The notes: a model not told the origin generated them from the sequence alone. DNA of 64,000 nucleotides from Gammaproteobacteria bacterium (GCA_050740695.1 JBOIDR010000002.1:3307-67306); one strand, 5' to 3'. Counted from the first letter of the stretch, positions 11,458-60,781 are shown. Translations and numbers: made by a program.

Positions 11458-12510
<1,053 letters not shown>

Positions 12511-18972: not shown

Positions 18973-19401
18973 GAACAACCTCCTTTGAAAGAGCCGACCC
19001 TTGTTTGTTGTGACGCCCAACGTGGCTGGTAAGCGGCGTACCGTAGGCATGTCCGCTTGACCTGCGGGTGTACGCCCAACATGGGCCGCACTTATGGGGC
19101 GAAAGTCCCCGGTAGGAGTACCGGTAATGTCCTCTTGTAGGACAAAGGTAACTACGAGGCGAAAACAAGGGTAATCCCGCGAGAGGTGGTCTGAAGGAAG
19201 CCCGAGCGCAAAAGTGCGAGCCGACGACAAAATCGCCGGAAGCGATTTTGAAGCGCTCTGTCGAGGGTCCGCATTGTCACGGTGTTTCTCGTTGCAAGAG
19301 CGCGACAGTATGCCGTGTACTGACTCCAGAGTTGGAAGTCGTAGAACGACGGCTTACTGCACTCATAGGGTGAATCAGGCGCGGCCGGGTGGTGGGTTTT
19401 A

Positions 19402-20295
19402 CTAGGCACGCGCGCGGCGCAGCCTGCTTCTCGCGGGCAGCTCGCTGTCGTAAATGCGCTTGACGCCGTCGCCGAGCGAGGTCTCGATGTCGCGGAGGTT
19501 GCGCACCAGGCGCTCGAAACCTCCGATCTCGACCGAGGCCGCCTGGTCGGTACCCCACGTGGCCCGATCGAGGGTGATATGGCGCTCGACGAAGGTGGCG
19601 CCCAGGGCCACCGCCGCGCCGCTCGGGGCGAGGCCGGTCTCGTGGCCGGAATACCCGATCGGGGTCTCGGGATAGGCGGCCTTCAGGGTCGGGATCATCT
19701 TGAGGTTCAGCTCTTCGAGCTTGCACGGGTAGGTAGAGGTCGAGTGCGCGATGAACAGTCCGGCCCGCCCCCCGGGACCGTGGAGACCGACGGTCTCGAC
19801 GGCCGTGCGGATCTCTTGCACCGTGGACATCCCGGTCGAGATCATGACCGGCCGCCCGGTCGCGCGTGCCTTGCGCAGTAAACGCAGATCCGTCAGTGAG
19901 GCGCTGGGGAGCTTGTAGAAAGGCGGCTCGAAACGCGCCATGAAGCCGATCGAGTCCTCGTCCCAACACGAGGCCGTCCAGTCGATCCCGAGATCGCAGC
20001 AGTAGCGGTCGATCTCCAGGTAATCCTCGACCCCGAGTTCAACGCGAAACCGGTAGTCGATGTAGCTCATCCGACCCCAGGGAGTGTCTCGCTCGACGCC
20101 CCACTGGTCCTTGGGCACGCATACCTCCGGATTGCGCTTCTGAAATTTCGCCATGTCGGCCCCGGCGCGCTTGGCGCCGGCGATGAGCGCCTTGGCGTGG
20201 GCGAGCGAGCCGTTATGGTTGATGCCGATCTCCGCGATAATGTAGACTGGCTCGCCGTCGCCTATTGCGCGTGCCCCGATATCCACGATTGCCAT
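19402..20295 (-). CDS. N-acetylneuraminate synthase (NeuB/SpsE) family protein. It has the TIM-barrel domain only, with no C-terminal SAF domain.
   Basis: MAIVDIGARAIGDGEPVYIIAEIGINHNGSLAHAKALI and ...GYSGHETG are NeuB-family motifs. Start at the internal Met. Confidence 0.7.
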   Translation of the reverse strand: MAIVDIGARAIGDGEPVYIIAEIGINHNGSLAHAKALIAGAKRAGADMAKFQKRNPEVCVPKDQWGVERDTPWGRMSYIDYRFRVELGVEDYLEIDRYCCDLGIDWTASCWDEDSIGFMARFEPPFYKLPSASLTDLRLLRKARATGRPVMISTGMSTVQEIRTAVETVGLHGPGGRAGLFIAHSTSTYPCKLEELNLKMIPTLKAAYPETPIGYSGHETGLAPSGAAVALGATFVERHITLDRATWGTDQAASVEIGGFERLVRNLRDIETSLGDGVKRIYDSELPARSRLRRARA

Positions 20296-20544
20296 GGTCC
20301 CCCTTTCTCGTCTCTTGCCTGTCGGACGCAAGCTATTCTTACAGCGGTCGCCAATCGCCCATTCTCGATCCCTAGCCCTCTCGCGGAGGCAAATGGGGCC
20401 TAAGGAGGCGATTCGTGGCCGTGCCTATCGTATGCCTTCAAATACGCCATGCCTGTGGCGCGGTTGGTGGGCGATGGCGCAGACAACGCCTCTAACCCCC
20501 AAACACAGGGATGCCCAGCCACCGCGGATGTTCGCACAGTCCTT

Positions 20545-21357: not shown

Positions 21358-22718
21358 CACCCCTCCCGTGCCTCTGCCCGCGGCTTGGTATTGAGCCCGC
21401 CGGTCTTGCGGAACACCGGCTCGATCGGCGCCCCCTCGAGCGACTCCGAGACCCGCCCGGCATCGACCGCCTCTTCGAGGACGCCGAGCGCCTCGCCAAA
21501 GGCGGCGAGTGTGTAGTCGATGTCCTCTTGTGTATGGGAGTCGCAGAGGTTGTGGATGCCGGTCCACAAGACCCCGCGCCGGATCAGCTCCTGCTGGACC
21601 AGGGTCTTTAGGACCAGCGGATCACCGGCCCGGGTATCGTCCGCTGGGGTATCAAAACCGACCAGCGTCCGGAACGGATAGCCCGTGACCGAGACAAAAT
21701 CGAGCCCGAGCCTCCCGATGAGCCGTTGCAGGCCCTCCAGGAGCGACTGGCCGCGCAGGGCGATGCGCTCGATGACCCCGTGATCGCGGAGGTAGCGGAT
21801 GCAGGCGATCGAGGCGGCGAGCGACAGGGTCTCGCCGCCGAAGGTGGTGAAGAAAAACACATCTTTTTCCAGGAGCGACATCACGTCCCGTCGGCCGGTC
21901 ACGGCCGAGATCGGCATGCCGTTGGCCATGGCCTTGGAGAACAGCGACAGGTCCGAGCGCACCCCCAGGAACGCCTGGGCCCCGCCGAGGGCACAGCGGA
22001 AGCCCGTCCACATCTCGTCGAAGATGAGGAGCGCGCCGTTCCGATCGCAGAGCCGCCGCAGCTCCGCGAGAAAACCGCCTTGCTCGCGCTCGAAGGTGAA
22101 GGGCTCCAGGATCACGCAGGCGGTGTCGGTATCGAGCGCCGCGAGCACCGAATCGATGTCGTTGTAGCGGAAGGTGCCGGTCAGCTCGGCGGTCGCCACC
22201 GGGATGCCGGCGGCCCGATCGGTCACGGCGATGTACCAGTCGTGCCAGCCATGATAACCGCAGCACAGCACCCGCTCGCGCCCGGTGTAGGCGCGCGCCA
22301 ACCGCACCGCGGCGCTCGTCGCGTCGCAACCGGTCTTCGAAAAACGCACGGATTCGGCATGGGGCACGATCTCGCGCAGGAGCTCCGCCAGCTCGACCTC
22401 CAAGGGGTGCATGAGCGAGAAGGTGATCCCGTCTTCGAGCTGGCGGCGGATGGCCTCGTCCACCGCCGGGTGGCAGTAGCCCAGGATGATGGGACCGATG
22501 CCCATGTTGAAATCGAGAAACTCGTTGCCGTCCACGTCCCACACCCGCGCGCCGCGGCCGCGCGCGAGGTACTTGGGCGCTACGCCCCGAGAGAACTGCG
22601 TGGGTCCCTTGGCGAGGGTCTGGGTGCCCGCCGGGATGAGCCCCTGCGCCCGCGCCCAGAGGGCGTCCGAGCGCTCGATAGAAGGCAGTTCGGGGTTGGA
22701 TTGGACTCGGTTCGGCAT
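21357..22718 (-). CDS. Class III (PLP-dependent) aminotransferase, glutamate-1-semialdehyde aminomutase-like.
   Basis: Full-length match to the class III aminotransferase fold, including LIFDEMWTGFR and SKAMANGMPISAV (Schiff-base Lys region). Confidence 0.8.
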   Translation of the reverse strand: MPNRVQSNPELPSIERSDALWARAQGLIPAGTQTLAKGPTQFSRGVAPKYLARGRGARVWDVDGNEFLDFNMGIGPIILGYCHPAVDEAIRRQLEDGITFSLMHPLEVELAELLREIVPHAESVRFSKTGCDATSAAVRLARAYTGRERVLCCGYHGWHDWYIAVTDRAAGIPVATAELTGTFRYNDIDSVLAALDTDTACVILEPFTFEREQGGFLAELRRLCDRNGALLIFDEMWTGFRCALGGAQAFLGVRSDLSLFSKAMANGMPISAVTGRRDVMSLLEKDVFFFTTFGGETLSLAASIACIRYLRDHGVIERIALRGQSLLEGLQRLIGRLGLDFVSVTGYPFRTLVGFDTPADDTRAGDPLVLKTLVQQELIRRGVLWTGIHNLCDSHTQEDIDYTLAAFGEALGVLEEAVDAGRVSESLEGAPIEPVFRKTGGLNTKPRAEAREG

Positions 22719-23030: not shown

Positions 23031-23534
23031 CGTGAGGGGGCACCTCAACCTGGTCCGCTGAGGGGGGTATTGGCGTTGACCGGCACGTTCGGAGTGATGT
23101 CGGGACGTAGCCTGGCGCTGCATCCTCGGCGCGCCAAGCATGCCCTTCCTTGGGCCTGGCTCCGGGCGCGAGCACGTCATGAAATATTACTCAAGCCGAG
23201 TATACTTTCATAGCTGATCCAAACGAGCTAGGCCAAGCGTTCGGAAACAATTATGAGAAATTTAGTATTAGACAAGATAAGAAAGCGTTCCAACTCTATG
23301 ACGATGGTTGGCGGCTAGCGTGGTAAGCTCTCTAAGTGAAATATTAGACGAGATAAATGCCTCTCTCATGACAGCCAGCGAACGCTGTGGCCGTTACCGT
23401 GCTGCACGGATCAGGGGACAATACACCCTTTTCTGCTATCGGGGCAAATAGGGGGCAAACAATGAGATCGGCTCTAACCATTGCTATGCTTGTTGCTTCG
23501 TTCATTCACGGATGTGCCATGGAGCGCACGGCGA

Positions 23535-23830
23535 ATAGGGATTTTAAACGTCCTTTTTATAAAGAAGCAGAGTACTGCTCGGCTTCGTGAGCTGTCAAGC
23601 ATACGGGTCCGCGGCCTCGGATCGGGCCCTTCCTCGGCCCGAGGCGCTATGTTTCGGGGCGTTTTGGGGTCTCGGGCGAGCGAGGGCCAAGAGGAAGCTC
23701 AGGGGCTGAGCCGGATGGGAGGGGGGTCGGTGGGGGATCAGACCTGTTGGAATCGATCGAAGGCCCTGGCCGCTGCTCGGGGCGGTGCTCGGGCGGACAT
23801 GCCAAGATGCTTGAGGATCTTGGCTCGCGG
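23535..23830. repeat. Copy A of an approximately 290-bp repeat. It carries the 3' tail of an IS91-family transposase remnant.
   Basis: Near-identical to 29113..29395, with a few indels and substitutions. Confidence 0.7.
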
Positions 23831-24621: not shown

Positions 24622-24729
24622 ATCAATCACGGTGGGATCTACGATGGCGGCGATGATCGTCAAGGGGCCACCGCACTGGGGGCAGTGCTCGATGTCGATC
24701 TCGAACACTCGTTTGAGCAGCCGGGCCCA
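24622..24729 (-). pseudogene. IS91/ISCR-family transposase zinc-finger segment remnant (WARLLKRVFEIDIEHCPQCGGPLTIIAAIVDPTVID).
   Basis: The same peptide is contiguous with the ILKHLG tail in copy B at 29313..29495. Here it is separated from the tail by the DUF899 segment. Confidence 0.5.
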
Positions 24730-24781
24730 GCTTATGGGGGCAGGCGCCGCGGGAGGGCGCACCTCAGCATAGTCCGCTGAG

Positions 24782-29062: not shown

Positions 29063-29112
29063 CTTCCCTTTTTTGCGATGAGCGTAGTCCCGCCAACGGA
29101 AACGGAGCGAAT

Positions 29113-29395
29113 AGGGATTTTAAACGTCCTTTTTATAAGAAGCAGAGTACTGCTCGGCTTCGTGAGCTGTCAAGCATACGGGTCCGCGGCCTCGGATCGG
29201 GCCCTTCCTTCGGCCCGAGGCGCTATGTTTCGGGACGTTTTGGGGTCTCGGGCGAGCGAGGGCCAAGAGGAGCTCAGGGGCTGAGCCGGATGAGAGGGGG
29301 GTCGGTGGGGGATCAGGCCTGTTGGAATCGATCGAAGGCCCTGGCCGCTGCTCGGGCGGACATGCCAAGATGCTTGAGGATCTTGGCAATCACGG
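29113..29395. repeat. Copy B of the approximately 290-bp repeat (see 23535..23830).
   Basis: Direct sequence comparison. Confidence 0.7.
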
Positions 29396-29495
29396 TGGGA
29401 TCTACGATGGCGGCGATGATCGTCAAGGGGCCACCGCACTGGGGGCAGTGCTCGATGTCGATCTCGAACACTCGTTTGAGCAGCCGGGCCCAGTG
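29313..29495 (-). pseudogene. IS91/ISCR-family transposase C-terminal remnant, with the zinc finger and tail contiguous.
   Basis: WARLLKRVFEIDIEHCPQCGGPLTIIAAIVDPTVIAKILKHLGMSARAAARAFDRFQQA. Confidence 0.5.
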
Positions 29496-29664: not shown

Positions 29665-30757
29665 CGGGGCCGGGTATCGCCCGCTGGGGTATCAAAACCG
29701 ACCAGCGTCCGGAACAGATAGCCCGTGACCGAGACAAAATCGAGCCCGAGCCTCCCGATGAGCCGTTGCAGGCCCTCCAGGAGCGACTGGCCGCGCAGGG
29801 CGATGCGCTCGATGACCCCGTGATCGCGAAGGTGCCGGATGCAGGCGATCGAGGCGGCGAGCGACAGGGTCTCGCCCCCGAAGGTGGTAAAAAAAACACG
29901 TCCTTTTCGAGGAGCGACATCACGTCCCGTCGCCCGGTCACGGCCGAGATCGGCATGCCGTTGGCCATGGCCTTGGAGAACAGCGACAGGTCCGAGCGTA
30001 CCCCCAGGAACGCCTGGGCCCCGCCGAGGGCAGAGCGGAAACCGGTCCACATCTCGTCGAAGATGAGAAGCGCGCCGTCGCGATCGCAGAGCCGCCGCAG
30101 CTCCGCGAGAAAACCGTTCTGCTCGCGCTCGAAGGTGAAGGGCTCCAGGATCACGCAGGCGGTGTCTGTATCGAGCGCCGAGAGCACCGAATCGATGTCG
30201 TTGTAGCGGAAGGTGGCGGTCAGCTCGGCGGTCGCGGCCGGGATGCCGGCGGCCCGATCGGTCACGGCGATGTACCAGTCGTGCCAGCCATGATAACCGC
30301 AGCACAGCACCCGCTCGCGCCCGGTGTAGGCGCGCGCCAGTCGCACCGCGGCGCTCGTCGCGTCGCAGCCGGTCTTCGAAAAACGCACGGATTCGGCATG
30401 GGGAACGACCTCGCGCAAGAGCTCCGCGAGCTCGACCTCCAGGGGGTGCATGAGCGAGAAGGTGATCGCGTCTTCGAGCTGGCGGCGGATGGCCTCGTCC
30501 ACCACCGGGTGGCAATAGCCCAGGATGATGGGACCGATGCCCATGTTGAAATCGAGGAACTCGTTGCCATCCACGTCCCACACCCGCGCGCCGCTACCGC
30601 GCGCGAGGTACTTGGGCGCCACGCCCCGGGAGAACTGCGTGGGTCCCTTGGCGAGCGTCTGGGTGCCCGCCGGGACGAGTCCTTGCGCCCGCGCCCAGAG
30701 AGCGTCCGAGCGCTCGATGCAGGGCAGTTGGGGGTTGGATTGGACTCGGTTCGGCAT
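29665..30757 (-). pseudogene. Second, diverged copy of the class III aminotransferase gene. It has one frameshift in an A8 homopolymer near 29890 and is 3'-truncated.
   Basis: About 93% identity to 21625..22718. The frame switches after ...LLEKDVFF. Similarity ends at GFDTPAGDTRP. It is followed by a 60-bp piece identical to the SDR gene's 3' region (20822..20885). Confidence 0.65.
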
Positions 30758-48942: not shown

Positions 48943-49578
48943 TCATGCCCGGCTCTTCTTAGGAACACCTGCCGAGGTCGATGGCAACCCTGAGAGCCGT
49001 TCCTCAACCGTCTGCCAGTTGAGATTCGAGAAGAACGCTTCGATATACTTCGGGCGCTCCGCCGGTTTGTAGTCGAGCAGAAACGCATGCTCCCAGACGT
49101 CCATGACGAGCACGGGCATAAAGCCGGACACGTTTCCGACTTCATGCAACGTGACCCAGTGGTTAGACAACCGGCCGTGTACCGGATCCAGGTAGCAAAT
49201 CGCCCATCCGACTCCACGCATCTTGCCGACGCTGGTGAAGTCTGCTTTCCAAAGATCGTAGCTGCCAAAGCTCGATTCGACAGCCCGAACGAATGGTGAA
49301 TTACCGGCCGGATCCACCCCGCCGTCCCTCTTCAAGTTGCTGAAGTAGTATTCATGCAAGACCATGCCGTTATACTCGAACCCGAGACGACGCTTGAGCT
49401 CTGAGTAGGCTGGCATCTCTTCCTGGTCAACCCGACCGTCTTTCAAGATCTCTGCGATTGCCTCCGTCAACCGGTTGGTTTCCTTGACATAACCTTCATA
49501 AAGCTTGAAATGCATCTCCAGAGTCCGATCAGAGATGCCGTTGAGCCTGCTGAGATTTAACTCTCTAACTCGATACAT
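48943..49578 (-). CDS. Fe/Mn-type superoxide dismutase family protein (lower GC, about 52%).
   Basis: C-terminal DVWEHAFLLDY contains the Asp and His ligands. N-terminal EMHF and VLHEYYF contain His ligands. Confidence 0.7.
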   Translation of the reverse strand: MYRVRELNLSRLNGISDRTLEMHFKLYEGYVKETNRLTEAIAEILKDGRVDQEEMPAYSELKRRLGFEYNGMVLHEYYFSNLKRDGGVDPAGNSPFVRAVESSFGSYDLWKADFTSVGKMRGVGWAICYLDPVHGRLSNHWVTLHEVGNVSGFMPVLVMDVWEHAFLLDYKPAERPKYIEAFFSNLNWQTVEERLSGLPSTSAGVPKKSRA

Positions 49579-49933
49579 TTTCTCTACCTCCTTCTAGAAT
49601 CATTGACTTTTCTAGCGAACGCCGCCCCGTACCCGGCTCGAACAATCTCCGTGCCATCCCCAGCCAGCCAGAATTATCTTATTGTTCCGCCGATTAGGGT
49701 ATATATGGATCCAGCCGAAGTCTTTGCCGGGGTGAAGCTCTTACAAATGTCGGTAAGAATTACAGGGAGGTGCTCGCCAGATAATATATTCATGACCCGG
49801 TACTCCACGGCAAGCTAGAGCTGTAACACGATTACGCTCTCCTTTTTATCTGCTTCGATTTCATTCGTATAAGTTCGTCGCCTTAGTCTCTGGCTCCTTA
49901 CGGGGTGTCTCGTCCCTCGCCTCGGACAATTTG

Positions 49934-50228
49934 TTAGCGATCCTGGACTCGCAACAGCCAATAGCCCGGACGACGCGAGTGATGCGCGAGCGCGAAGACA
50001 ATGATGCCGTCTCTGGCTGGCCGATATACAACCGCAAACGGGAAAGTCTTTGAGAAAGACGCGTCGAGTATTCTTGGAGGCAGGTCGAGCGGGAAGTGCT
50101 TCTGTGAAACGCGAGCCAAGACCGGGCTGCTTCTTGTTGTAGTAAATAACTTCGGCAAGAAACTCACGGCGTGCTACCGCTACGAACCGGGGGCCTGTTT
50201 CAACGGGACAAGCGCCTAGCTTCGGCAA
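49934..50228 (-). pseudogene. ParE/RelE-family toxin gene with a one-nucleotide frameshift.
   Basis: In frame A, ...REFLAEVIYYNKKQPGLGSRFTEAL...TRRVFLKDFP matches the ParE N-terminal half. In frame B, FPFAVVYRPARDGIIVFALAHHSRRPGYW matches the C-terminal half. Confidence 0.55.
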
Positions 50229-50330
50229 AGACGTCTTCTGCGGCGTAGGTTTTCGTTTCGCCCCGATCAAACGCCGCAACGCGATCTTCGATCTGTCGGG
50301 CCCACTCCGCCTCAATGTCAGAAAGCGGTG
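50201..50330 (-). pseudogene. Addiction-module antitoxin (putative addiction module component family) C-terminal half. There is no in-frame start, and the upstream part is occupied by the gyrA 3' end.
   Basis: LSDIEAEWARQIEDRVAAFDRGETKTYAAEDVFAEARRLSR matches the C-terminal consensus of this antitoxin family. A stop lies in frame immediately upstream. Confidence 0.45.
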
Positions 50331-50376
50331 GGCGTAACCGGGGTTGGGTGAGATCGCAGCCGAGCGGTCCGCCCGC

Positions 50377-52917
<2,541 letters not shown>

Positions 52918-53158
52918 TCAATTAGAGGCTCTGCAGGAGGCCGGAGGTGGCGGTATTTTAGCATGGCACTGCATTTCTCACCGGCATCGTGCTGCGACGC
53001 CGCGGCGCGCAGGTCGCCGTAGGCGGTGCGCCGGGTATGCTCAGAGTCTGACCTATTTGTCAAGCTGCGACCCGCCTGGGGGGATTTTAACATGTCATAC
53101 CTACACCTGCTGTCCTGCCCTGGTCTCAGGGCTTCGCGGCTGCGCCGATATACCGCGT

Positions 53159-53350
53159 ATGTTTGGCGACGACGAGACCTATTACACCTGCGTGGCGAAG
53201 GAGATCGACAGCGACCAGGACCGACCGGGGCTCCGGGCCAAAGCCCTGGCCGAGACCGACTATGAAGAGCGGCGGGCCCGGGCGCGTTACCTCAAGCTGC
53301 GGGTCAAGGTGACGAAGGCCGAGGTCTCGTGCCGACGGCATGTTAACTGA
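53159..53350 (+). CDS. Small hypothetical protein (63 aa).
   Basis: MFGDDETYYTCVAKEIDSDQDRPGLRAKALAETDYEERRARARYLKLRVKV. A compact ORF with a plausible start. No assigned family. Confidence 0.3.
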   Translation: MFGDDETYYTCVAKEIDSDQDRPGLRAKALAETDYEERRARARYLKLRVKVTKAEVSCRRHVN

Positions 53351-53403
53351 GGTCTTAGTCTGGAGACCCAGAACGCGCCAGTCATTGTATTCGCGGAGGT
53401 ATT

Positions 53404-53787
53404 ATGAAAAGCCGATATCAAGGAAAGCGATTCATCGATAAAGTCAATTTCCCCCACGGGTTTAATAGGGGTGCCTTTTCAATACCGCACGCAACTATGC
53501 TTGAGGAGTACGGGGCTCACTGCGTGGCATTGATGCACGTCGAGATCGAGCCGGAAACAGAAGGAGAGCGTCATTTCGTAGCGGTGTGCGCGAGAACGAA
53601 TGAACCGCGTTCTGAATTGGAACATGTGTGGCTACAGTATCTGAAACTGGTCGAGAACAGCCAAAAGCTGACATCCATATTTCTTGGTAAAGGGGGTGGG
53701 TTTACTGTCGCCGCCGAAGTAGGAACCGAGACCATCAGTTTTTCGACGATTATTTATCGAGAAGAATGGGCAAAGCGCCATAAATAG
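53404..53787 (+). CDS. Hypothetical protein (127 aa) in an AT-rich island.
   Basis: ORF with GC about 48% against a 67% background. No motif recognised. Confidence 0.4.
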   Translation: MKSRYQGKRFIDKVNFPHGFNRGAFSIPHATMLEEYGAHCVALMHVEIEPETEGERHFVAVCARTNEPRSELEHVWLQYLKLVENSQKLTSIFLGKGGGFTVAAEVGTETISFSTIIYREEWAKRHK

Positions 53788-54120
53788 GGGCCTAACACGC
53801 AGGCAAGGGGTCAGCTTGAACCTTCCCCGAAAACGCCCGGATGGACCACGGATGGCTCGTAGAAGCAATCCGAGCTTACCGGTTGCAGCGTTGGCACCGT
53901 GGACGGCGGAGATACCGAGGTCGGTGTAGTAAGCGCAGGGTGCGCTGTGCGCACGCGGAATGGCCGAGTATGCCTCTGAGTGGTTACCGTGAACCCAACG
54001 CTCGATCCGCGTGCGCACCGCAAACCACGCGGTGCACACCCTACGACTGCTATTCCCACGGGGAAACCAGGGTAGGGGCCACGGCAGGTACGCACGGGCC
54101 TCTACCCTCCACTTTTACCA

Positions 54121-54563
54121 TGGATGAGGGTAACCATCTGAGAGATGAGACACATCGAGACGTAGCAGTAGAAGCGTATCGGGCCTATGCAAGTGGGAAG
54201 CTTCCAGTAACGACTTTGAATCTTCGCGGTCCGATCAGTCCTAGGATTCTTGCGCAAGGTCAACGCGCCATGAGGAATCCATCATTTGCGTCACTCTTAA
54301 CTCCAACCGAACCGCATGGTATACTCTACATTGGTGGGCATACATCCGGTAAAGATACCATGCGTTTCATGAAGATGATCAATGCGTGCAGGCGAGCAGA
54401 GGATACATACATTCGCAAGAGATATGCAGAGAACGATAAGTGGCACGCTCACAAGGTCGCTAATATGTTGACGACAGGCCTTCTTCGAACAGGATTCTCA
54501 ATAAGGGATTGGTGGATATTGTCGATGGAGGGCAAATATATGGCGAGTTTGAGTTGCTGGTAG
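54121..54563 (+). CDS. Hypothetical protein. The ORF could begin at 53841. It may continue by frameshift into 54509..54823.
   Basis: AT-rich ORF. The 3' end overlaps the next ORF in another frame, consistent with one gene carrying a frameshift. Confidence 0.3.
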
Positions 54564-54823
54564 GGTACCAAGAAACATTTCACCGTTTGCCTCCTTGGAA
54601 CTCCAAGCGGGATGCAGATTCAGCTTACATCCGTTCGCTCAACGTGACTAAAGACCAATTTGCTATTGGAACAAGAACTTGTCACACAGAGTGGCTCGCG
54701 GATGCTTGTCCAGGGCTAACCGCTCTCACGGGCCAAGTTCTGGGTGGTGGGATCGAGCACGGCGAGAGGCTGTCAGTTTTAGTTAATGCTTCTGCAATCT
54801 CGAAGGCGCTTTGTGTTCGCTAA
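54509..54823 (+). CDS. Hypothetical protein, or the 3' part of the preceding gene.
   Basis: ORF in the AT-rich island. No motif. Confidence 0.25.
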   Translation: MVDIVDGGQIYGEFELLVGYQETFHRLPPWNSKRDADSAYIRSLNVTKDQFAIGTRTCHTEWLADACPGLTALTGQVLGGGIEHGERLSVLVNASAISKALCVR

Positions 54824-55025
54824 CAGGCATGCCACCTATCACGGTTTGGTAGCGATTGGTCCTTTTGAGCGGGGCCCAGATACCCTGCCCTATTCCATCC
54901 CTCCCATTGCGAGCATTGGCTGGCCTTTGCCCAAGGTTATACCAGAAGGCCGTCGTGTAATCCTCTCTTGCGAACTGCCCGGTGCGCACCCGCATGCTAT
55001 CGTGGCGTTAGAGCAGGGTACTCGA

Positions 55026-55244
55026 TTAAGCGGCAACGGTTTGTACCTCCGATGGGAGCTTGTTCAGGATCAGTTGCTGAAGCTGGACCTTTTTGCTCGC
55101 GTTGTCGATGTCAATGCCAACAAGGTTTCCGTTGGCGTCATAGTCCACCACAACGCCTTCAGAGATTTCTCGGCTTTCGACACTCGGCTGTTCGGAGAGG
55201 TCAATATATAAGGAATCCGTGTCGGCGTAGTAATTCAGTTTCAT
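55026..55244 (-). CDS. DUF2283-family small protein.
   Basis: MKLNYYADTDSLYIDLSEQPSVESREISEGVVVDYDANGNLVGIDIDNASK is the DUF2283 pattern. Confidence 0.65.
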   Translation of the reverse strand: MKLNYYADTDSLYIDLSEQPSVESREISEGVVVDYDANGNLVGIDIDNASKKVQLQQLILNKLPSEVQTVAA

Positions 55245-55483
55245 GGCTTGAAACCTCGGTCCAAGAAAGCATTATGGATCGTCACCTTATCCTCCAACGT
55301 GACGACCCGCAAGTAGCGGCCGCCGAGATCCGGGCAAGCGGCCCAGAATCTATATCGGTTGTGTTCCTGGGGTTCCGAACGAACCGGTTCATCAACGACT
55401 CGAATGCACCATTCCTTCTTGAGATATGGGCGCTTCCGGAGTACCTTATTCTCGAAGTACTCAGTGAACTGATAGGCGGTCAC
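55241..55483 (-). CDS. DUF4258-family small protein.
   Basis: MTAYQFTEYFENKVLRKRPYLKKEWCIRVVDEP...GRYLRVV fits DUF4258. It overlaps the DUF2283 gene start by 4 nt. Confidence 0.65.
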   Translation of the reverse strand: MTAYQFTEYFENKVLRKRPYLKKEWCIRVVDEPVRSEPQEHNRYRFWAACPDLGGRYLRVVTLEDKVTIHNAFLDRGFKP

Positions 55484-56039
55484 GTTTTAACGGGATACCC
55501 GAGACGGCCTCAAGTCGTAGTCGAGCAAGCGCAGGCGCGCTGTGCGCACCACAAGCTGGATGTTTCCATACGATGAGCCCAATGCGTGGTCCGCCTGCGC
55601 ACAGCAAAACCACAAACGACGCGGTTGCTTGTATGCACGGAAACTCCGAATGAGATATCACACGAGCGCTCCTATCTGAAAAGGTGTGGAGATGCTTAGG
55701 CACCCGAAGGACGAGGCTCAAGGACATCGGGCAGCTACCGGTATGCCTCTGGTCCACTCGACCATTCGTTCCATCATTCCCCATTCCAGGCCTAAGGGGG
55801 CAAAGCTGGGCGAACGCCCTTTTTGAACCGGCGTCCTCCAATAAAGGAAGCCATTGAAGGACGGCTGTCTATGTCCTTCTGTATTAGTTCCTTCATGGCG
55901 AGAAGGCGTTCCAACTCTATGACGATGGTTGGCGGGTAGCGAAGTAAGAGTAAATACTCAGCTTAGCGCCCCCGGCCTGGTTGGACAGATGCGTGCGGAT
56001 CAGGCACTAGCACCGTCCTCGCAGGCGGCTGGGTTCTAT

Positions 56040-56531
56040 TTAAGCTAGAAAAACTCTGTACGGGTGATAAGTTCCATCTTTATCGCGCACGAAAAACTCC
56101 CCGCCGTTGTCTAGCTCTTTAACAACATCTTCTAATAGCCGTAAAGAGACACGGAAAACCTCGGTTCGAGTGCTTGGTTCCACTCGCTGCCTAAGTTTCT
56201 CAAGCCTTGCTGCCATACTCTTACCTAGCAGGATGTGAATTCGTTCATCCGCCTGAACATGTTCCGTGCTCTTCGTCATCCTCGTGTAAGCTCCTTCTCC
56301 CTCATCTGTGTGTTCGTTAGCTCGCTCAACCAATGCAGACATATATAACCCCCGTTGATGTGTGGGGGTGAGCGACGTGATACTGTGCCCGACCCGAGAA
56401 CATACACCCTGCGTACCCCGTGTACGCAGGGCGTCGCGTCCATGATTTATTGTAAAAGCGCCTGCACGCGGTCCCAAAGCTCCCAAACCGCAAGTACCGT
56501 TCCCGTCGCGGTCCCAGCTGCGATCGCCCAC
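56040..56531 (-). CDS. Hypothetical protein with an N-terminal ribbon-helix-helix (CopG-like) region. Start uncertain (probably MSALVERANEH).
   Basis: RIHILLGKSMAARLEKLRQRVEPSTRTEVFRVSLRLLEDVV has an RHH-like pattern. AT-rich. Confidence 0.35.
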   Translation of the reverse strand: MGDRSWDRDGNGTCGLGALGPRAGAFTINHGRDALRTRGTQGVCSRVGHSITSLTPTHQRGLYMSALVERANEHTDEGEGAYTRMTKSTEHVQADERIHILLGKSMAARLEKLRQRVEPSTRTEVFRVSLRLLEDVVKELDNGGEFFVRDKDGTYHPYRVFLA

Positions 56532-57138
56532 GTTCTTAAAGTCCAGCTTAGCCCCTTAGGGGCGTCAGGCCGGACCAATATCTCAACAACCACCTGGCCC
56601 TCCTCGACGCGCACTATCTTCTTGCGTCGAAGCCATACTAGAAACATCATATAGATGCCTCCTATCAACTAAGGCACACCCGACCCCGACACAGCAGAGC
56701 GGGGAAAGCTACTCGGGGGCCATTGGCGGGGACTATCCCGCTCCGCTTTCGTGTGAGTTCATGGTGTCTCCTCGAAGTTGATTGGAATTATGCTACGACG
56801 TCCTTTGTGGAGGTGGTTACCCGCCGCCTCTTTCATAAGCCATTGAGTTCATGATATTTTCTCCTGTCAAAGGTTGATGCACCATTGGTTGGTGCGGACG
56901 CGTGGATACGTGATCCACACATGTAGTCTAGCACGCCCTTGGGCCATGTCAACCCCCCCAGGGGGCCTCTTTATGCCCATGGAGTGCTATGGTTAGAGCG
57001 CGATTGGACCATGAGGGTCGACGGAAGGTTCCGGCGCGTGTGCTGTGACGGCTTCAGGAAGCAGCAAAGAAATCAAGCCGTGCGGCCGCCAGACCAGCGC
57101 TTGGTGGCCTCGCGACCGGCAGTGGTGAGAAATCGGGG

Positions 57139-58575
57139 CTACAGCGCCTCCGACGCGAAGTCAGCAAGCCGTGAACGCTCGCCGCGCAAGAGGATCACGT
57201 GGCCGCTGTACTCCCACTCTTTGAAACGGTCCACCGCGTAGGTCAGGCCCGAGGTGGTCTCGCTCAGGTAAGGCGTGTCGATCTGGGCGAGGTTGCCGAG
57301 GCAGACGATCTTGGTGCCGGGGCCGGCGCGGGTGATGAGGGTTTTCATCTGCTTCGCGGTCAGGTTCTGGGCCTCGTCGATGATCACGTAGCGGTTCAGG
57401 AAGGTGCGGCCGCGCATGAAGTTGAGCGAGCGGATCTTGATGCGCTTCTGTAACAGATCGGTGGTGGCGGTGCGCCCCCAGTCTCCGCCGACATCGGTCT
57501 GCGTGAGGACCTCCAGGTTGTCGGGCAAGGCCCCCATCCAGGGCGTCATCTTCTCCTCCTCGGTGCCCGGGAGGAAACCGATGTCCTCGCCCACCGGCAC
57601 CGTGATGCGGGTCATGACGATCTCGCGATAACGCTGCATCTCCATGGTCTGCGCGAGGCCCGCGGCGAGGGCCAGCAAGGTCTTGCCGGTCCCGGCCGTG
57701 CCGAGCACGGTCACGAAATCGACACTAGGGTCCATGAGCAGGTTCAAGGCGTAGCTCTGCTCGCGGTTGCGGGCGGTGATGCCCCAGACGGCGTTGCGGG
57801 CCGCCCGGTGATCTACGACCTTCTGGAGCGTGGTGCGCTCGCCCTGCCCGCGCCGGACGATGACCTCGAAGTCCTCCTTGCCGGGCTGGTAGAGGAATTC
57901 GTTCGGGTACCAGCGCGCTACCTGCGGCCCCTGCACGTCATAGAAGGTATGACCGTGCTCCTGCCAGCAGCGCATGTCCTCGCCATGATCCTCCCAGAAA
58001 TCGGGGGGGAGCTCGTGGGTGCCGGCATAGAGCAGGCGGGCGTCGTCGATGACCCGGTCGCTGTAGTAGTCCTCGGCCGGGACGCCCAGGACACGCGCCT
58101 TGATGCGCAGGTTGATGTCCTTGGAGACCAGGATGACGGTGCGCTCGGGACGGAGCGGCCCGAGGGCGATGGCCACGGCCAGGATGATGTGATCCGGCTT
58201 GTTGCCGGGCACGGGCGCGGGCAGGTCCACGCTGAGCTGTTCGGTCTGCAGGAACAGGCGTCCGCCCCGCGGCCCCGGAGGAGCAATCGATCCCCCGGGG
58301 AGGTCGCCGTTGCGAGCGCTCGTCGGCTGCGGGAGCGGCAGCCCCTCTTCGATGGCCCGGCGATCGGCGTCGCCGATCAGCTCATCCAGGAAGCGGCTGA
58401 CCTGGCGGGCGTTGCGGGCCAGCTCCGAGGCGCCCTTCTTGGCCGCGTCCATCTCCTCCAGGACCACCATGGGCACGTACAGATCGTGCTCCTCGAAGCG
58501 GAACAACGCCGTCGGATCGTGCAGCAACACATTGGTGTCGAGCACGAACAGCCGCAGACCAGACTCGGTGACCAC
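57139..58575 (-). CDS. PIN-domain/PhoH-like ATPase (PhoH2 type).
   Basis: N-terminal PIN (LFVLDTNVLLHD). C-terminal P-loop (VLGTAGTGKTLLALAAGL) and the PhoH signature. Confidence 0.8.
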   Translation of the reverse strand: MVTESGLRLFVLDTNVLLHDPTALFRFEEHDLYVPMVVLEEMDAAKKGASELARNARQVSRFLDELIGDADRRAIEEGLPLPQPTSARNGDLPGGSIAPPGPRGGRLFLQTEQLSVDLPAPVPGNKPDHIILAVAIALGPLRPERTVILVSKDINLRIKARVLGVPAEDYYSDRVIDDARLLYAGTHELPPDFWEDHGEDMRCWQEHGHTFYDVQGPQVARWYPNEFLYQPGKEDFEVIVRRGQGERTTLQKVVDHRAARNAVWGITARNREQSYALNLLMDPSVDFVTVLGTAGTGKTLLALAAGLAQTMEMQRYREIVMTRITVPVGEDIGFLPGTEEEKMTPWMGALPDNLEVLTQTDVGGDWGRTATTDLLQKRIKIRSLNFMRGRTFLNRYVIIDEAQNLTAKQMKTLITRAGPGTKIVCLGNLAQIDTPYLSETTSGLTYAVDRFKEWEYSGHVILLRGERSRLADFASEAL

Positions 58576-60055: not shown

Positions 60056-60334
60056 ATGCAGACCACCCTCCGCATCGACGACCAGCTCTACCGCGAGGCC
60101 AAGGCCGAAGCGGCCCGCGCCGGTGTCACCATCACCGGCTTCATAGAGGAGGCCCTGCGGCTCCGCCTGCGCCACAAGGCCGCGGGCGCGCGGGCCGTAC
60201 CGGTCGAGTTGCCCACCGTCGCAGCCGGCAAGGGCTTCCCTTTCGGTCCGGAGGACCTGAAGGTGCTCGCGCGCGAGGCGGATCGGGAGGCCGACGGGTT
60301 GAAGCTTCGCAGGCCCCGCGTACGGCGTCGCTAG
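60056..60334 (+). CDS. vapB: VapB-type antitoxin (ribbon-helix-helix).
   Basis: MQTTLRIDDQLYREAKAEAARAGVTITGFIEEALRLRL. Its stop lies 6 nt before the vapC start. Confidence 0.65.
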   Translation: MQTTLRIDDQLYREAKAEAARAGVTITGFIEEALRLRLRHKAAGARAVPVELPTVAAGKGFPFGPEDLKVLAREADREADGLKLRRPRVRRR

Positions 60335-60340
60335 CGCCCA

Positions 60341-60781
60341 ATGCACCTGCTGGATGCGAACGTCCTCATCTACGCGTTTCGGCGCGACAGCCCGTACCAC
60401 GGCCCCTGCTACGCGTGGCTCACCTCGGCCCTTTTACAGGAGTCTCCCGTCGCGACCACCTCCGTGGTCGATCTGGCGCTCCTCCGGATCGTCACCCTGC
60501 CGTCTCTTGGCAAGGCAGCGGCGGCTGTGGCTGATGTCTTTCGATTCCTGGCAGCGCTCGAGGCTCAGCCGGCAGTGGTCCGGATCGAGCCCACAGATCG
60601 GCATCTGCCACTCTTCGCGAAGCTTTGCGTCGATCTCAAACTGCGCGGCAACGATATCAACGATGCTTATCTCGCGGCGCTCGCGCTCGAACATGATGCC
60701 GTCTTTGTCACCGCGGATCGGGGGTTCGCGCGGTTCTCAGGACTGAGGATCCTCGATCCTCTGGCGGGCGAGGGGGGCTGA
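60341..60781 (+). CDS. vapC: VapC PIN-domain toxin.
   Basis: MHLLDANVLIYAFRRDSPYH...NDAYLAALALEHDAVFVTADRGFARF carries the PIN acidic residues. Confidence 0.8.
   Translation: MHLLDANVLIYAFRRDSPYHGPCYAWLTSALLQESPVATTSVVDLALLRIVTLPSLGKAAAAVADVFRFLAALEAQPAVVRIEPTDRHLPLFAKLCVDLKLRGNDINDAYLAALALEHDAVFVTADRGFARFSGLRILDPLAGEGG

What the first reader, a model, noticed from the sequence alone, without database searches (positions are those of the whole stretch)
53400..56900. A 3.5-kb AT-rich island of unknown genes between gyrA and phoH2, with a DUF4258/DUF2283 pair and an RHH protein
GC is about 45-50% against about 67% for the background. On the plus strand, three ORFs (127 aa, about 147-240 aa, about 104 aa) have no recognisable domains. 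The last two may be one gene with a frameshift. On the minus strand there is a DUF4258-DUF2283 pair with a 4-nt overlap, a widely distributed but uncharacterised TA-like pair. There is also an RHH-containing 100-160-aa protein and another small ORF. The island is bounded on its right by a 45-bp sequence also found at 23281. The content and GC suggest a horizontally acquired module. It may be defense- or addiction-related, and its core genes are unstudied.
Basis: partly seen in the sequence, partly recalled or inferred. Interest (0 to 1): 0.6.

Follow-up and report, generated by a model that had tools for sequence, protein, structure and literature searches.

The report
Inverted, strain-variable islet of small gene modules
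The low-GC stretch between gyrA and phoH2 is a real but ordinary patchwork of small, separately conserved gene modules (two toxin-antitoxin-like pairs, a MaoP-family gene and a broken nuclease-like gene), not one new system, and it lies flipped relative to a closely related strain.

Summary
The island is real. It is a mosaic, not one module.

- The 127-aa ORF is a DUF413/MaoP-family protein, so "no domains" is wrong.
Against an intact copy in a related strain it has lost 27, 4 and 2 nt, so it is a pseudogene. Its family is tiny (13 clusters in 1.84 billion representatives) and is probably a divergent GIY-YIG nuclease, on weak fold evidence.
- DUF2283 is confirmed. Its upstream 80-aa partner does not match Pfam DUF4258. 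That partner belongs to a large unannotated family (about 4000 clusters), next to DUF2283 with the same 4-nt overlap in all 11 places fetched.
- The RHH-like protein (100 aa, sub-threshold RHH) pairs with a small upstream protein that has a hydrophobic C-terminus; the pair recurs in one other fetched sequence.
- The 48-nt repeat lies inside the island. It is a relic gene end, not a boundary.
- The real boundaries are 10-bp inverted repeats (ATTTCTCACC). A related strain has the opposite orientation and a PIN cassette in place of DUF413.
- There are no PADLOC hits.

Interest is modest.

The parts
52973..52982 (+). Left inverted repeat ATTTCTCACC (junction on the gyrA side)
   Evidence: The exact 10-mer occurs 3 times in the window against 0.09 expected. 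Strain L099 matches the window's phoH2 side up to this 10-mer, then continues with the sequence that follows this copy.
52983..53034 (+). Segment that directly follows phoH2 in the related strain L099 but lies next to gyrA here
   Evidence: 82% identity over 62 nt to L099:550-610. Alignment score is 70 against a shuffle mean of 16 and maximum of 31.
53159..53350 (+). 63-aa ORF with host-like GC (0.64) and no family match; absent from L099
   Evidence: Called as a gene in L001 and L002. No Pfam, NCBIfam, PADLOC or PHROG match. It lies inside the block that L099 replaces.
53404..53787 (+). DUF413 / MaoP-family gene (127 aa, GC 0.48)
   Evidence: Pfam PF04219 at 2.4e-21, 75.9 bits against a cutoff of 25, covering residues 9-92. 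The best NCBIfam PRK11027 model scores 78 bits, below its equivalog cutoff of 135.
53928..54028 (+). GC-rich hairpin repeat, copy A (unexplained)
   Evidence: It is a direct repeat of 55524-55613 (89% over 27 nt and 80% over 40 nt) with a 26-nt, 81% complementary stem. The only Rfam hit is a weak Ms1 match (22 bits against a gathering score of 162).
54051..54119 (+). Conserved leader of the 180-aa gene with a strong hairpin and T-run (54069-54110). Homology with L005/L099 resumes at 54051.
   Evidence: 97% identity to L005. Folding z-score is -3.0. Alignments.
54120..54823 (+). Pseudogene of a roughly 180-aa protein that is probably GIY-YIG-like. It is read here as two ORFs, 54120-54563 and 54509-54823.
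   Evidence: Intact homologues P0002-P0004 are 179-186 aa and fuse both ORFs. Against L099 the window lacks 27 nt after 54266 (removing the conserved VYVLRLSAS strand), 4 nt after 54508 (frameshift) and 2 nt after 54644 (loss of the stop codon). Substitutions are 12 non-synonymous to 5 synonymous and spread evenly over codon positions.
55026..55244 (-). DUF2283 gene (72 aa), second gene of the pair
   Evidence: Pfam PF10049 at 2e-18. It follows a p80 homologue with a 4-nt overlap in all 11 places fetched. Differences from homologues are mostly at third codon positions.
55241..55483 (-). p80: an 80-aa protein of a large, highly conserved, unannotated family; first gene of the pair
   Evidence: 3979 clusters at E<=1e-3, with 75-95% identity among the 120 listed and no Pfam domain for any of them. 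No Pfam hit at E<=10 and no PDB hit. 49 of 74 nucleotide differences from L086 are at third codon positions.
55524..55613 (+). GC-rich hairpin repeat, copy B (unexplained)
   Evidence: It is not conserved upstream of p80 in other loci.
55892..55948 (+). Relic 3' end of a lost gene. It contains the 48-nt repeat (55901-55948) shared with 23280-23327.
   Evidence: 92% identity over 48 nt. In one frame both copies read ...KAFQLYDDGWR(V/L)A(K/W) followed by a stop. The copy near 23.1-23.3 kb keeps 47 codons and this one keeps 19.
56040..56342 (-). RHH-like protein, 100 aa (the real start is the ATG at 56342, not the GTG at 56531)
   Evidence: Six homologues. P0135 is the same protein annotated at 79 aa (100% identity, 79% of the query covered). 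P0136-P0139 are 101-104 aa and cover 100% of the query; P0140 is 93 aa and covers 81%. RHH_1 scores E 0.002-0.003, and 5 of 6 family members hit it, all below the cutoff. An equally weak T5orf172 match appears in 6 of 6.
56404..56434 (-). Hairpin between the two genes of the p73/RHH-like pair
   Evidence: Inverted repeat of 13 nt, 92% complementary. The same stem, CGCCCTGCGTAC/GTACGCAGGGCG, sits between the two genes in L104 with a different loop.
56447..56650 (-). p73: a small protein (67 aa from the ATG at 56650) with a hydrophobic C-terminal stretch, upstream partner of the RHH-like gene
   Evidence: The 84-aa ORF in the same position in L104-L106 shares the C-terminal ...LR..AI..G.A.GT....WE......A.LQ. 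The start was chosen by an AGGAGG Shine-Dalgarno sequence read from the sequence.
56925..56952 (-). Promoter-like site TTGACA-16-TAGACT with an extended -10 TG, facing the p73/RHH-like pair
   Evidence: 10 of 12 consensus matches, the best site in the region. This is a consensus match only.
57124..57133 (-). Right inverted repeat (GGTGAGAAAT on the plus strand), 5 nt after the phoH2 stop codon
   Evidence: It is part of an 18-nt motif, TAGCCCNNATTTCTCACC, that also sits at the stop codon of an unrelated ORF at 11455-11472.

Best explanation
The low-GC stretch is a strain-variable islet at the phoH2/gyrA junction. It was built from small modules that occur separately elsewhere, and it is not a single system.

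It holds:
1. A DUF413/MaoP-family gene.
2. A decayed copy of a rare roughly 180-aa gene that is probably a divergent GIY-YIG nuclease.
3. An intact pair, p80 followed by DUF2283, with overlapping stop and start codons. This most likely works as a toxin-antitoxin-like (addiction) pair.
4. A second conserved pair: a small protein with a hydrophobic C-terminus followed by an RHH-like, probably DNA-binding, protein. It has its own promoter-like site and a hairpin between the genes.
5. Relics: a 19-codon gene end and two copies of an unexplained hairpin element.

The roughly 4.1-kb block 52983-57123 is bounded by 10-bp inverted repeats. It is inverted relative to a close relative, which also carries a different cassette (a PIN_3 gene plus a 61-aa ORF) in place of the 63-aa ORF and DUF413.

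Shown: the composition, domain matches, pseudogenisation, pair conservation, inversion junction and cassette replacement.

Inferred: that the two pairs act as toxin-antitoxin-like modules, that the 180-aa family is a nuclease, and that the inversion arose by recombination between the repeats.
For: - Composition.
- DUF413 and DUF2283 score above the Pfam cutoffs.
- The two plus-strand ORFs are fused in intact homologues. Three lineage-specific deletions and a 12:5 non-synonymous to synonymous ratio mark the window copy as a pseudogene.
- The 180-aa family has 13 representative clusters in 1.84 billion proteins. The AlphaFold2 model has pLDDT 84 and pTM 0.83. The top three PDB matches are the GIY-YIG enzyme R.Eco29kI (E 0.03-0.17, probability up to 0.77). 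The top viral match is a GIY-YIG domain protein.
- The family's conserved columns are Y45, L47, R48, I71-G76, R85, N108, H114, P163 and W164.
- p80 has about 4000 homologous clusters. In the 11 fetched places, from MAGs labelled Gemmatimonadetes and Gammaproteobacteria, it is followed by DUF2283 with a 4-nt overlap. Differences fall mainly at third codon positions.
- The p73/RHH-like pair and its hairpin recur in L104-L106. In L103 the RHH-like gene lies near a HigB-like toxin gene followed by an HTH gene.
- L099, identical over 1078 nt to L005 from another sample, shows this order: phoH2 end, ATTTCTCACC, the window's 52983-53034, PIN_3 plus 61-aa ORF, intact 180-aa gene, the window's 54690-54901.
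Against: - No toxicity, nuclease activity or expression was tested.
- The GIY-YIG call rests on weak fold matches (TM about 0.4) and on motifs I recognised by eye. No Pfam or PDB sequence match supports it.
- The fold of p80 is untested, and hhalign against E. coli RelE found nothing.
- Only one of the two inversion junctions is seen in the other strain, because its contig ends first.
- No recombinase gene lies within 10 kb.
- The 10-mer is part of a short motif that also follows another gene's stop codon. So the repeats may simply be dispersed microhomology.
- The two hairpin copies are unexplained.
Confidence: 0.7

Rival explanations
1. The island is one coherent, horizontally acquired defence or addiction system whose genes act together.
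For: The genes share low GC and are clustered. TA-like pairs are present. A nuclease-like gene is present.
Against: - The 180-aa gene, the p80-DUF2283 pair and the RHH-like gene each occur elsewhere without the other island genes.
- The nuclease-like gene is broken here.
- The close relative swaps DUF413 for a PIN cassette yet keeps the neighbouring gene.
- No PADLOC model matches any of the eight proteins.
Confidence: 0.08
2. The 4.1-kb block is a programmed invertible (phase-variable) segment. A site-specific recombinase acting on the 10-bp inverted repeats flips which gene set runs co-directionally with phoH2.
For: Exact 10-bp inverted repeats lie at both junctions, and the opposite orientation is seen at the phoH2 junction in a relative. 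In the window orientation the minus-strand genes follow phoH2. In L099 the plus-strand genes do.
Against: - The two orientations come from different strains that differ by 4-8% in sequence, not from one population.
- No recombinase gene lies in the island or within 10 kb.
- The repeat core is part of a short motif also found after another gene, which suits a one-off recombination between dispersed repeats.
Confidence: 0.07
3. The locus is an integron-like or hairpin-mediated cassette hotspot, and the two direct hairpin copies are the recombination sites that delimit cassettes.
For: - Hairpin copy A ends 23 nt before the point where homology with L099 resumes, at the right end of the swapped cassette.
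- The copies are in direct orientation.
- One homologue of the 180-aa gene (L004) is preceded by an attC-like GCCTAAC...GTTAGCC sequence. Another (L097) sits in a same-strand array of small genes, three of which match antitoxin families.
Against: - The hairpins lack the attC core sites (RYYYAAC / GTTRRRY), as read from the sequence.
- No integrase is present.
- L099 has an ordinary terminator-like hairpin, not this element, at the same junction.
- The island's genes lie on both strands.
- Folding is barely better than shuffled sequence (z -1.8 and -0.4).
Confidence: 0.07
4. The region is mostly non-functional debris: decaying foreign DNA with chance ORFs.
For: One pseudogene, one relic gene end and about 1.3 kb with no called gene or conserved ORF. 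The 63-aa ORF has no detected homologue.
Against: DUF413, p80, DUF2283, the RHH-like protein and p73 all have conserved homologues. p80 and DUF2283 show third-position-biased divergence, which indicates purifying selection.
Confidence: 0.08

Closest known systems
Type II toxin-antitoxin pairs of the RelE/ParE (BECR-fold) superfamily, in particular Pfam DUF4258 (PF14076), which PMC11980606 lists as a TA toxin family of unknown activity
   Same: Two small genes in one operon with overlapping stop and start codons. The pair occurs widely and patchily, and in one set of closely similar contigs it lies next to MobA/TraG mobilisation genes. By eye, p80 has the helix-then-strands layout and an ...LRVV...T..NAF.DR ending that recall DUF4258. 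That resemblance is my own recall, not a test.
   Different: p80 does not match PF14076 even at E<=10. Sources call its homologues 'hypothetical protein'. The family is unusually conserved: 76% mean column identity across 20 aligned members, including ones from MAGs labelled Gammaproteobacteria, Burkholderiales and Gemmatimonadetes. Neither toxicity nor neutralisation has been shown for p80 or for DUF2283.
GIY-YIG nucleases, closest solved structure R.Eco29kI (PDB 3nic, 3mx4)
   Same: The best fold matches in both libraries searched are GIY-YIG proteins. Intact family members keep a Tyr-containing strand (IYVLRL), LYIGG, an invariant Arg, a mostly conserved Glu and a PPWN Asn, in the GIY-YIG order. 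From my recall of the Eco29kI catalytic residues, its two Tyr residues are 27 positions apart. Here they are 28 apart.
   Different: There is no sequence-level match to any GIY-YIG Pfam model or PDB chain. TM-scores are only about 0.4. No neighbour that was scanned or carries a precomputed Pfam entry matches a methyltransferase family, so it is not a classical restriction-modification enzyme. The window copy has lost the first Tyr strand and is frameshifted.
MaoP (YifE) of E. coli, the Ori-macrodomain protein that acts with the maoS site (PMC5023128)
   Same: Same Pfam family, DUF413, matched over 84 residues.
   Different: It scores far below all NCBIfam equivalog cutoffs (78 against 135 bits). 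It sits in a low-GC cassette that a close relative lacks. PMC5023128 describes MaoP as conserved in Enterobacteria and as having coevolved with Dam methylase, whereas this host's nearest PhoH2 relatives are mostly Chromatiales-like gammaproteobacteria and unclassified MAGs. No maoS site was sought.
Short-inverted-repeat DNA inversions, such as the fim switch of E. coli with its 9-bp inverted repeats (my own knowledge)
   Same: A DNA block is bounded by short exact inverted repeats and is found in both orientations.
   Different: The block is 4.1 kb and holds whole genes. No recombinase is nearby. The two orientations were seen only in different strains.

Membership tests
Pfam DUF4258 (PF14076; RelE/ParE-superfamily TA toxin) | Match to the family's profile HMM | tested here: not met
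   hmmscan of p80 and four homologues at E<=10 gave no DUF4258 hit. None of the 120 listed homologues has a precomputed Pfam domain.
Pfam DUF4258 (PF14076; RelE/ParE-superfamily TA toxin) | BECR (RelE-like) fold | not testable with these tools
The profile finds no PDB chain. hhalign against E. coli RelE gives probability 0.3%, which is uninformative.
Type II toxin-antitoxin module (for p80-DUF2283) | Two small co-transcribed genes kept together across distant genomes | tested here: met
   The pair has a 4-nt overlap in the window and in all 11 fetched places (L086-L096), which come from MAGs labelled Gemmatimonadetes and Gammaproteobacteria.
Type II toxin-antitoxin module (for p80-DUF2283) | One product is toxic and the other neutralises it | not testable with these tools
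   This needs expression experiments.
Pfam DUF2283 (PF10049) | Match to the profile HMM above the gathering score | tested here: met
   66.8 bits against a cutoff of 23, full length of the model.
DUF413 / MaoP | Match to Pfam PF04219 above the gathering score | tested here: met
   75.9 bits against a cutoff of 25.
DUF413 / MaoP | Equivalog of E. coli MaoP (NCBIfam PRK11027 models) | tested here: not met
   The best model scores 78 bits against a cutoff of 135.
DUF413 / MaoP | A cognate maoS site next to the gene | not tested
   The maoS sequence was not retrieved, and it is defined only for enterobacteria (PMC5023128).
GIY-YIG nuclease superfamily (for the 180-aa family) | Match to a GIY-YIG profile or to a solved GIY-YIG sequence | tested here: not met
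   No GIY-YIG family among the Pfam hits for 13 members at E<=10. No GIY-YIG chain among the PDB profile hits.
GIY-YIG nuclease superfamily (for the 180-aa family) | GIY-YIG fold | tested here: inconclusive
GIY-YIG nuclease superfamily (for the 180-aa family) | Conserved Tyr, Tyr-x-Gly, Arg, Glu and Asn in the canonical order | tested here: met
   In intact homologues Y45, Y73-I74-G75 and R85 are invariant or nearly so. A Glu is present in most members and PPWN in nearly all. Assigning these residues to catalytic roles is my inference.
GIY-YIG nuclease superfamily (for the window's own copy) | Intact reading frame with the first Tyr strand | tested here: not met
   A 27-nt deletion removes VYVLRLSAS. 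Further 4-nt and 2-nt deletions shift the frame and remove the stop codon.
Ribbon-helix-helix (Pfam RHH_1, CopG family) | Match to the profile above the gathering score | tested here: inconclusive
   17.8-18.5 bits against 20.5. Five of six family members hit it (best E 5e-4), all sub-threshold. An equally weak T5orf172 match appears in six of six.
Known anti-phage defence systems (PADLOC-DB 2.0) | Any island protein matching a defence-system model | tested here: not met
   Zero hits for eight proteins at E<=0.1.
Integron cassette array | attC sites with RYYYAAC / GTTRRRY cores, and an IntI integrase | tested here: not met
   The hairpin repeats lack both cores (sequence). No integrase is among the called genes within 10 kb.
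Site-specific invertible element | Inverted repeats at both ends, and both orientations observed | tested here: met
   ATTTCTCACC at 52973-52982 and its reverse complement at 57124-57133. L099 shows the opposite orientation at the phoH2 junction. The second junction in L099 is not on the contig.
Site-specific invertible element | A cognate recombinase, and both orientations within one population | tested here: not met
   No recombinase within 10 kb. The two assemblies with the window's orientation are 100% identical to it, and the other orientation comes from a strain differing by 4-8%. Read-level data could not be examined.

The most novel reading that the evidence does not exclude
p80-DUF2283 could be a distinct, unrecognised toxin-antitoxin or defence family. 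p80 would be a very strongly conserved small effector, possibly RelE-like, that current profile libraries miss, and DUF2283 would be its neutralising partner. Separately, the islet could be a recombinase-driven invertible cassette site bounded by ATTTCTCACC repeats. The evidence excludes neither reading.
Probability: 0.3. Interest if true: 0.5.

Novelty: new member of a known kind. Interest (0 to 1): 0.3.

Why it matters
The region as a whole is an ordinary variable islet of the kind that collects toxin-antitoxin-like pairs and gene relics, so it does not change how such loci are understood. Three by-products are useful.

1. A very large, very conserved 80-aa family has no Pfam model in the copy searched. 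It was next to DUF2283 in every place fetched, so the pair is an easy target for a toxicity and neutralisation test.
2. A very rare roughly 180-aa family looks like a new branch of GIY-YIG nucleases. It occurs as a lone gene among housekeeping genes and in variable regions.
3. This is a clean natural example of a 4-kb inversion, plus a cassette swap, between 10-bp inverted repeats that begin 5 nt after the phoH2 stop codon.

Tried and rejected
- **Empty-site comparison.** 80 genomes with a PhoH2 relative (best 69% identity) keep gcvR-bcp-phoH2. None has gyrA or any island gene within 10 kb, so no empty site could be defined.
- **tRNA or tmRNA integration site.** None in the window.
- **Rfam.** Nothing in the island except a far sub-threshold Ms1 match. 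I do not read the GC-rich stretch as a 6S/Ms1-like RNA.
- **Hairpin repeats as attC, retron or IS200/IS605 ends.** They have no core sites and there is no reverse transcriptase or transposase. They are not conserved next to p80 or the 180-aa gene elsewhere, and are absent from viral contigs and plasmids.
- **The 48-nt repeat as an island boundary or mobile-element end.** Rejected. It is the shared 3' end of a lost ORF. Its other copy lies beside a sugar-biosynthesis cluster, not beside an insertion sequence. Its peptide has no plasmid match.
- **Phage origin.** Neither p80 nor the 180-aa family was found in 2.9 million viral contigs. PHROG hits were only weak ones for DUF2283.
- **The DUF2283 = FseA link in PMC4755241.** I did not use it. 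I believe, from memory, that FseA is assigned to a different DUF in later work, and nothing here tests it.
- **First AlphaFold2 model from three sequences.** pLDDT 60 and no useful matches. It was superseded by the 13-sequence model.
- **Leader of the p73/RHH-like pair as a conserved RNA.** With two sequences only, the consensus fold is unconvincing.

Full report

The stretch lies between gyrA (50377-52917, minus strand) and a PIN-PhoH gene (57139-58575, minus strand).
- 400-nt windows read 0.475-0.60.
- 53351-56950 reads 0.532.
- Individual island genes read 0.475-0.55.
- The whole window is 0.642, and gyrA and phoH2 are 0.66.

The island is 100% identical to two public assemblies, an NCBI MAG contig and a Logan contig. 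The closest PhoH2 relatives in species-representative genomes reach only 69% identity. They are mostly Chromatiales-like gammaproteobacteria and unclassified MAGs. Most of them keep gcvR-bcp-phoH2, but none has gyrA or any island gene next to phoH2. No empty-site comparison was therefore possible at that distance.

**2. The plus-strand genes**

*The 127-aa ORF (53404-53787).* This is a DUF413/MaoP-family protein. Pfam gives 2.4e-21, well above the cutoff. It falls far below every NCBIfam equivalog cutoff.

Three intact homologues of 179-186 aa span both ORFs. A contig from a close relative carries an intact copy. That contig is L099, identical over 1078 nt to L005 from another sample, and it is 95.6% identical to the window over the aligned blocks. 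Against it, the window copy shows these changes:
- It lacks 27 nt after 54266, which removes a strand (VYVLRLSAS) conserved in every family member.
- It lacks 4 nt after 54508, which causes the frameshift.
- It lacks 2 nt after 54644, which removes the stop codon and creates the false C-terminal tail.
- It lacks about 160 nt just downstream.

Substitutions between the two copies are 12 non-synonymous to 5 synonymous and are spread evenly over codon positions. The window copy is a pseudogene.

**3. What the 180-aa family is**

The family is very rare: 13 representative clusters among 1.84 billion proteins. It has no Pfam or PDB sequence match.

The alignment suggested a GIY-YIG layout to me: IYVLRL, about 27 residues, LYIGG, an invariant Arg, a Glu, then PPWN.

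A 13-sequence AlphaFold2 model reached pLDDT 84 and pTM 0.83.
- Its three best PDB matches are all the GIY-YIG restriction enzyme R.Eco29kI (E 0.03-0.17, probability up to 0.77, TM about 0.4).
- Its best match among viral models is a "GIY-YIG domain-containing protein".

This evidence is consistent but weak, and the more sensitive libraries were unavailable. I put the GIY-YIG reading at about 70%.

Contexts of family members:
- A lone low-GC gene between TonB-dependent receptor genes and rsfS-nadD.
- Next to a T5orf172 protein.
- In a same-strand array of small genes, three of which match antitoxin families.
- Preceded by an attC-like sequence.
- No neighbour that was scanned or carries a precomputed Pfam entry matches a methyltransferase family, and the family is absent from viral contigs.

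**4. The DUF2283 pair**

DUF2283 (55026-55244) is confirmed. The 80-aa ORF upstream of it (p80, 55241-55483) overlaps it by ATGA.

p80 does not match DUF4258 or any other Pfam family at E<=10, and neither do four homologues that I scanned. It belongs to a large family of 3979 clusters at E<=1e-3:
- Nearly all of the 120 listed members are 79-80 aa long.
- They are 75-95% identical to the window protein.
- They come from MAGs labelled Gammaproteobacteria, Burkholderiales and Gemmatimonadetes.
- Sources call them "hypothetical protein", and none carries a Pfam domain.

In all 11 places fetched, p80 is followed by DUF2283 with the same 4-nt overlap. In one set of closely similar contigs the pair lies beside MobA and TraG genes. 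Divergence from distant copies falls mainly at third codon positions: 49 of 74 differences in p80 and 41 of 65 in DUF2283. Both genes are therefore under purifying selection.

This supports a conserved two-gene module of the toxin-antitoxin type. Toxicity, the fold of p80 and the role of DUF2283 remain untested. DUF4258 itself is listed as a RelE/ParE-superfamily toxin family of unknown activity (PMC11980606).

**5. The RHH-like gene and its partner**

Homologues show that the protein is 100 aa and starts at the ATG at 56342. Four homologues of 101-104 aa cover 100% of the query, and one of 93 aa covers 81%.

The RHH_1 match is sub-threshold in the window protein and in 5 of 6 family members. 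An equally weak match to the C-terminal half of T5orf172 appears in 6 of 6. So "RHH" is plausible but not established.

The small ORF upstream (p73) most likely runs 56447-56650, giving 67 aa. Its counterpart in L104-L106 shares the hydrophobic C-terminal stretch. The hairpin between the two genes (56404-56434) is also kept there. A promoter-like site, the best in the region (10 of 12 consensus matches), faces this pair. In L103 the RHH-like gene lies near a HigB-like toxin gene followed by an HTH gene. This is a second conserved pair of unknown function. A toxin-antitoxin-like role is my inference.

**6. The 45-bp repeat**

The repeat is 48 nt at 92% identity, at 55901-55948 and 23280-23327. 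It lies inside the island, not at its right edge.

In one reading frame both copies end ...KAFQLYDDGWR(V/L)A(K/W) followed by a stop. The distant copy keeps 47 codons and the island copy keeps 19. It is therefore the relic 3' end of a lost gene. The other copy lies beside a NeuB, SDR and aminotransferase sugar-biosynthesis cluster, not beside an insertion sequence.

**7. The real boundaries, and an inversion**

L099 carries the 3' end of phoH2 (96% identical to the window). It is followed by ATTTCTCACC and then by sequence 82% identical to the window's 52983-53034, which in the window lies next to gyrA.

The window has ATTTCTCACC at 52973-52982 and its reverse complement at 57124-57133, which begins 5 nt after the phoH2 stop codon. 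L099 equals the window's phoH2-side sequence up to the 10-mer plus the window's gyrA-side sequence after it. The 10-mer occurs 3 times in the window against 0.09 expected.

After that segment, L099 runs in the same order and direction as the window's plus strand:
- a cassette;
- then the 180-aa gene;
- then the window's 54690-54901.

The simplest reading is that block 52983-57123 is inverted between the two strains, through recombination in the 10-bp inverted repeats.

Caveats:
- The reciprocal junction is not on the L099 contig.
- No recombinase gene lies within 10 kb.
- The 10-mer is part of an 18-nt motif, TAGCCCNNATTTCTCACC, that also sits at the stop codon of an unrelated ORF at 11455-11472. 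The repeats may therefore be copies of a short dispersed motif.

**8. Cassette replacement**

Between the two conserved flanks, the window has 53035-54050: the 63-aa ORF, DUF413 and hairpin copy A. L099 instead has a PIN_3-domain gene plus a 61-aa ORF. The locus therefore varies between close relatives in content as well as in orientation.

**9. What remains unexplained**

Two direct copies of a GC-rich hairpin element of about 90-100 nt lie at 53928-54028 and 55524-55613. They are the only copies in the 64 kb. The other findings on them:
- They match no Rfam family.
- They fold little better than shuffled sequence.
- They are not associated with p80 or the 180-aa gene elsewhere.
- They have no match in viral contigs or plasmids.

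**10. Verdict**

The island is real and foreign-looking, but it is a mosaic islet rather than a novel system. No protein matches a known defence model.

Interest is modest. The most useful leads are the large unannotated p80 family, which was next to DUF2283 in every place fetched, the rare GIY-YIG-like family, and the short-repeat inversion.

Noticed in passing
window 19173-19376 (+): Rfam group-II-D1D4-3 match at 36.4 bits (gathering score 32), next to a NeuB gene (19402-20331, minus). No reverse-transcriptase ORF was seen in the ORFs scanned nearby. It may be an intron fragment or a false positive.
   Followed up: partly
window 21627-22149 vs 29667-30188; 23531-23824 vs 29107-29387; 24624-24730 vs 29387-29493: Several direct repeats at 92-100% identity within a sugar-biosynthesis region, including two class-III aminotransferase genes. 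This looks like a recent segmental duplication.
   Followed up: partly
window 11455-11472 (+) and 57124-57141 (-): The 18-nt motif TAGCCCNNATTTCTCACC starts with the stop codon of two unrelated genes: a 278-aa ORF and phoH2. Its core is the inverted repeat at the island junctions. It may be a short dispersed intergenic element.
   Followed up: partly
window 60056-60334 (+) and 60341-60781 (+): A VapB-like 92-aa ORF followed by a PIN-domain gene of 146 aa, about 300 nt beyond gcvR. This is another toxin-antitoxin-like pair in the same neighbourhood.
   Followed up: no
window 49579-50376: About 800 nt with no called gene and lower GC (0.49-0.58) between a superoxide dismutase gene (48943-49578, minus) and the 3' end of gyrA. 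The 166-aa ORF there has no Pfam match.
   Followed up: no
window 56754-56773 and 56844-56863 (read on the minus strand): Two tandem mini-ORFs, each with a Shine-Dalgarno-like sequence (MNSMAYERGGG and MNSHESGAG), in the leader upstream of p73. L104 has a similar MVTVHRSGDG mini-ORF. They could be leader peptides or part of an RNA structure.
   Followed up: partly
window 53848-54116 (+): Weak Rfam match to Ms1, a 6S-like small RNA (22.4 bits against a gathering score of 162, E 0.008), over the GC-rich stretch that holds hairpin copy A. Most likely chance.
   Followed up: partly
L004 620-700 and L097 1-3345: One homologue of the 180-aa gene is preceded by an attC-like inverted repeat, GCCTAACAACCCAGAGCAGC...GCTGCTCTGGGTTGTTAGCC. 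Another lies at the end of a same-strand array of small genes that includes Unstab_antitox, HicB-like and (weak) VapB antitoxin matches. Both contexts are reminiscent of integron cassette arrays.
   Followed up: no
L099 755-1376: In the related strain a PIN_3-domain gene (151 aa), overlapped at its 3' end by a 61-aa ORF, occupies the place of the window's 63-aa ORF and DUF413 gene. It is followed by a terminator-like hairpin with a T-run.
   Followed up: partly
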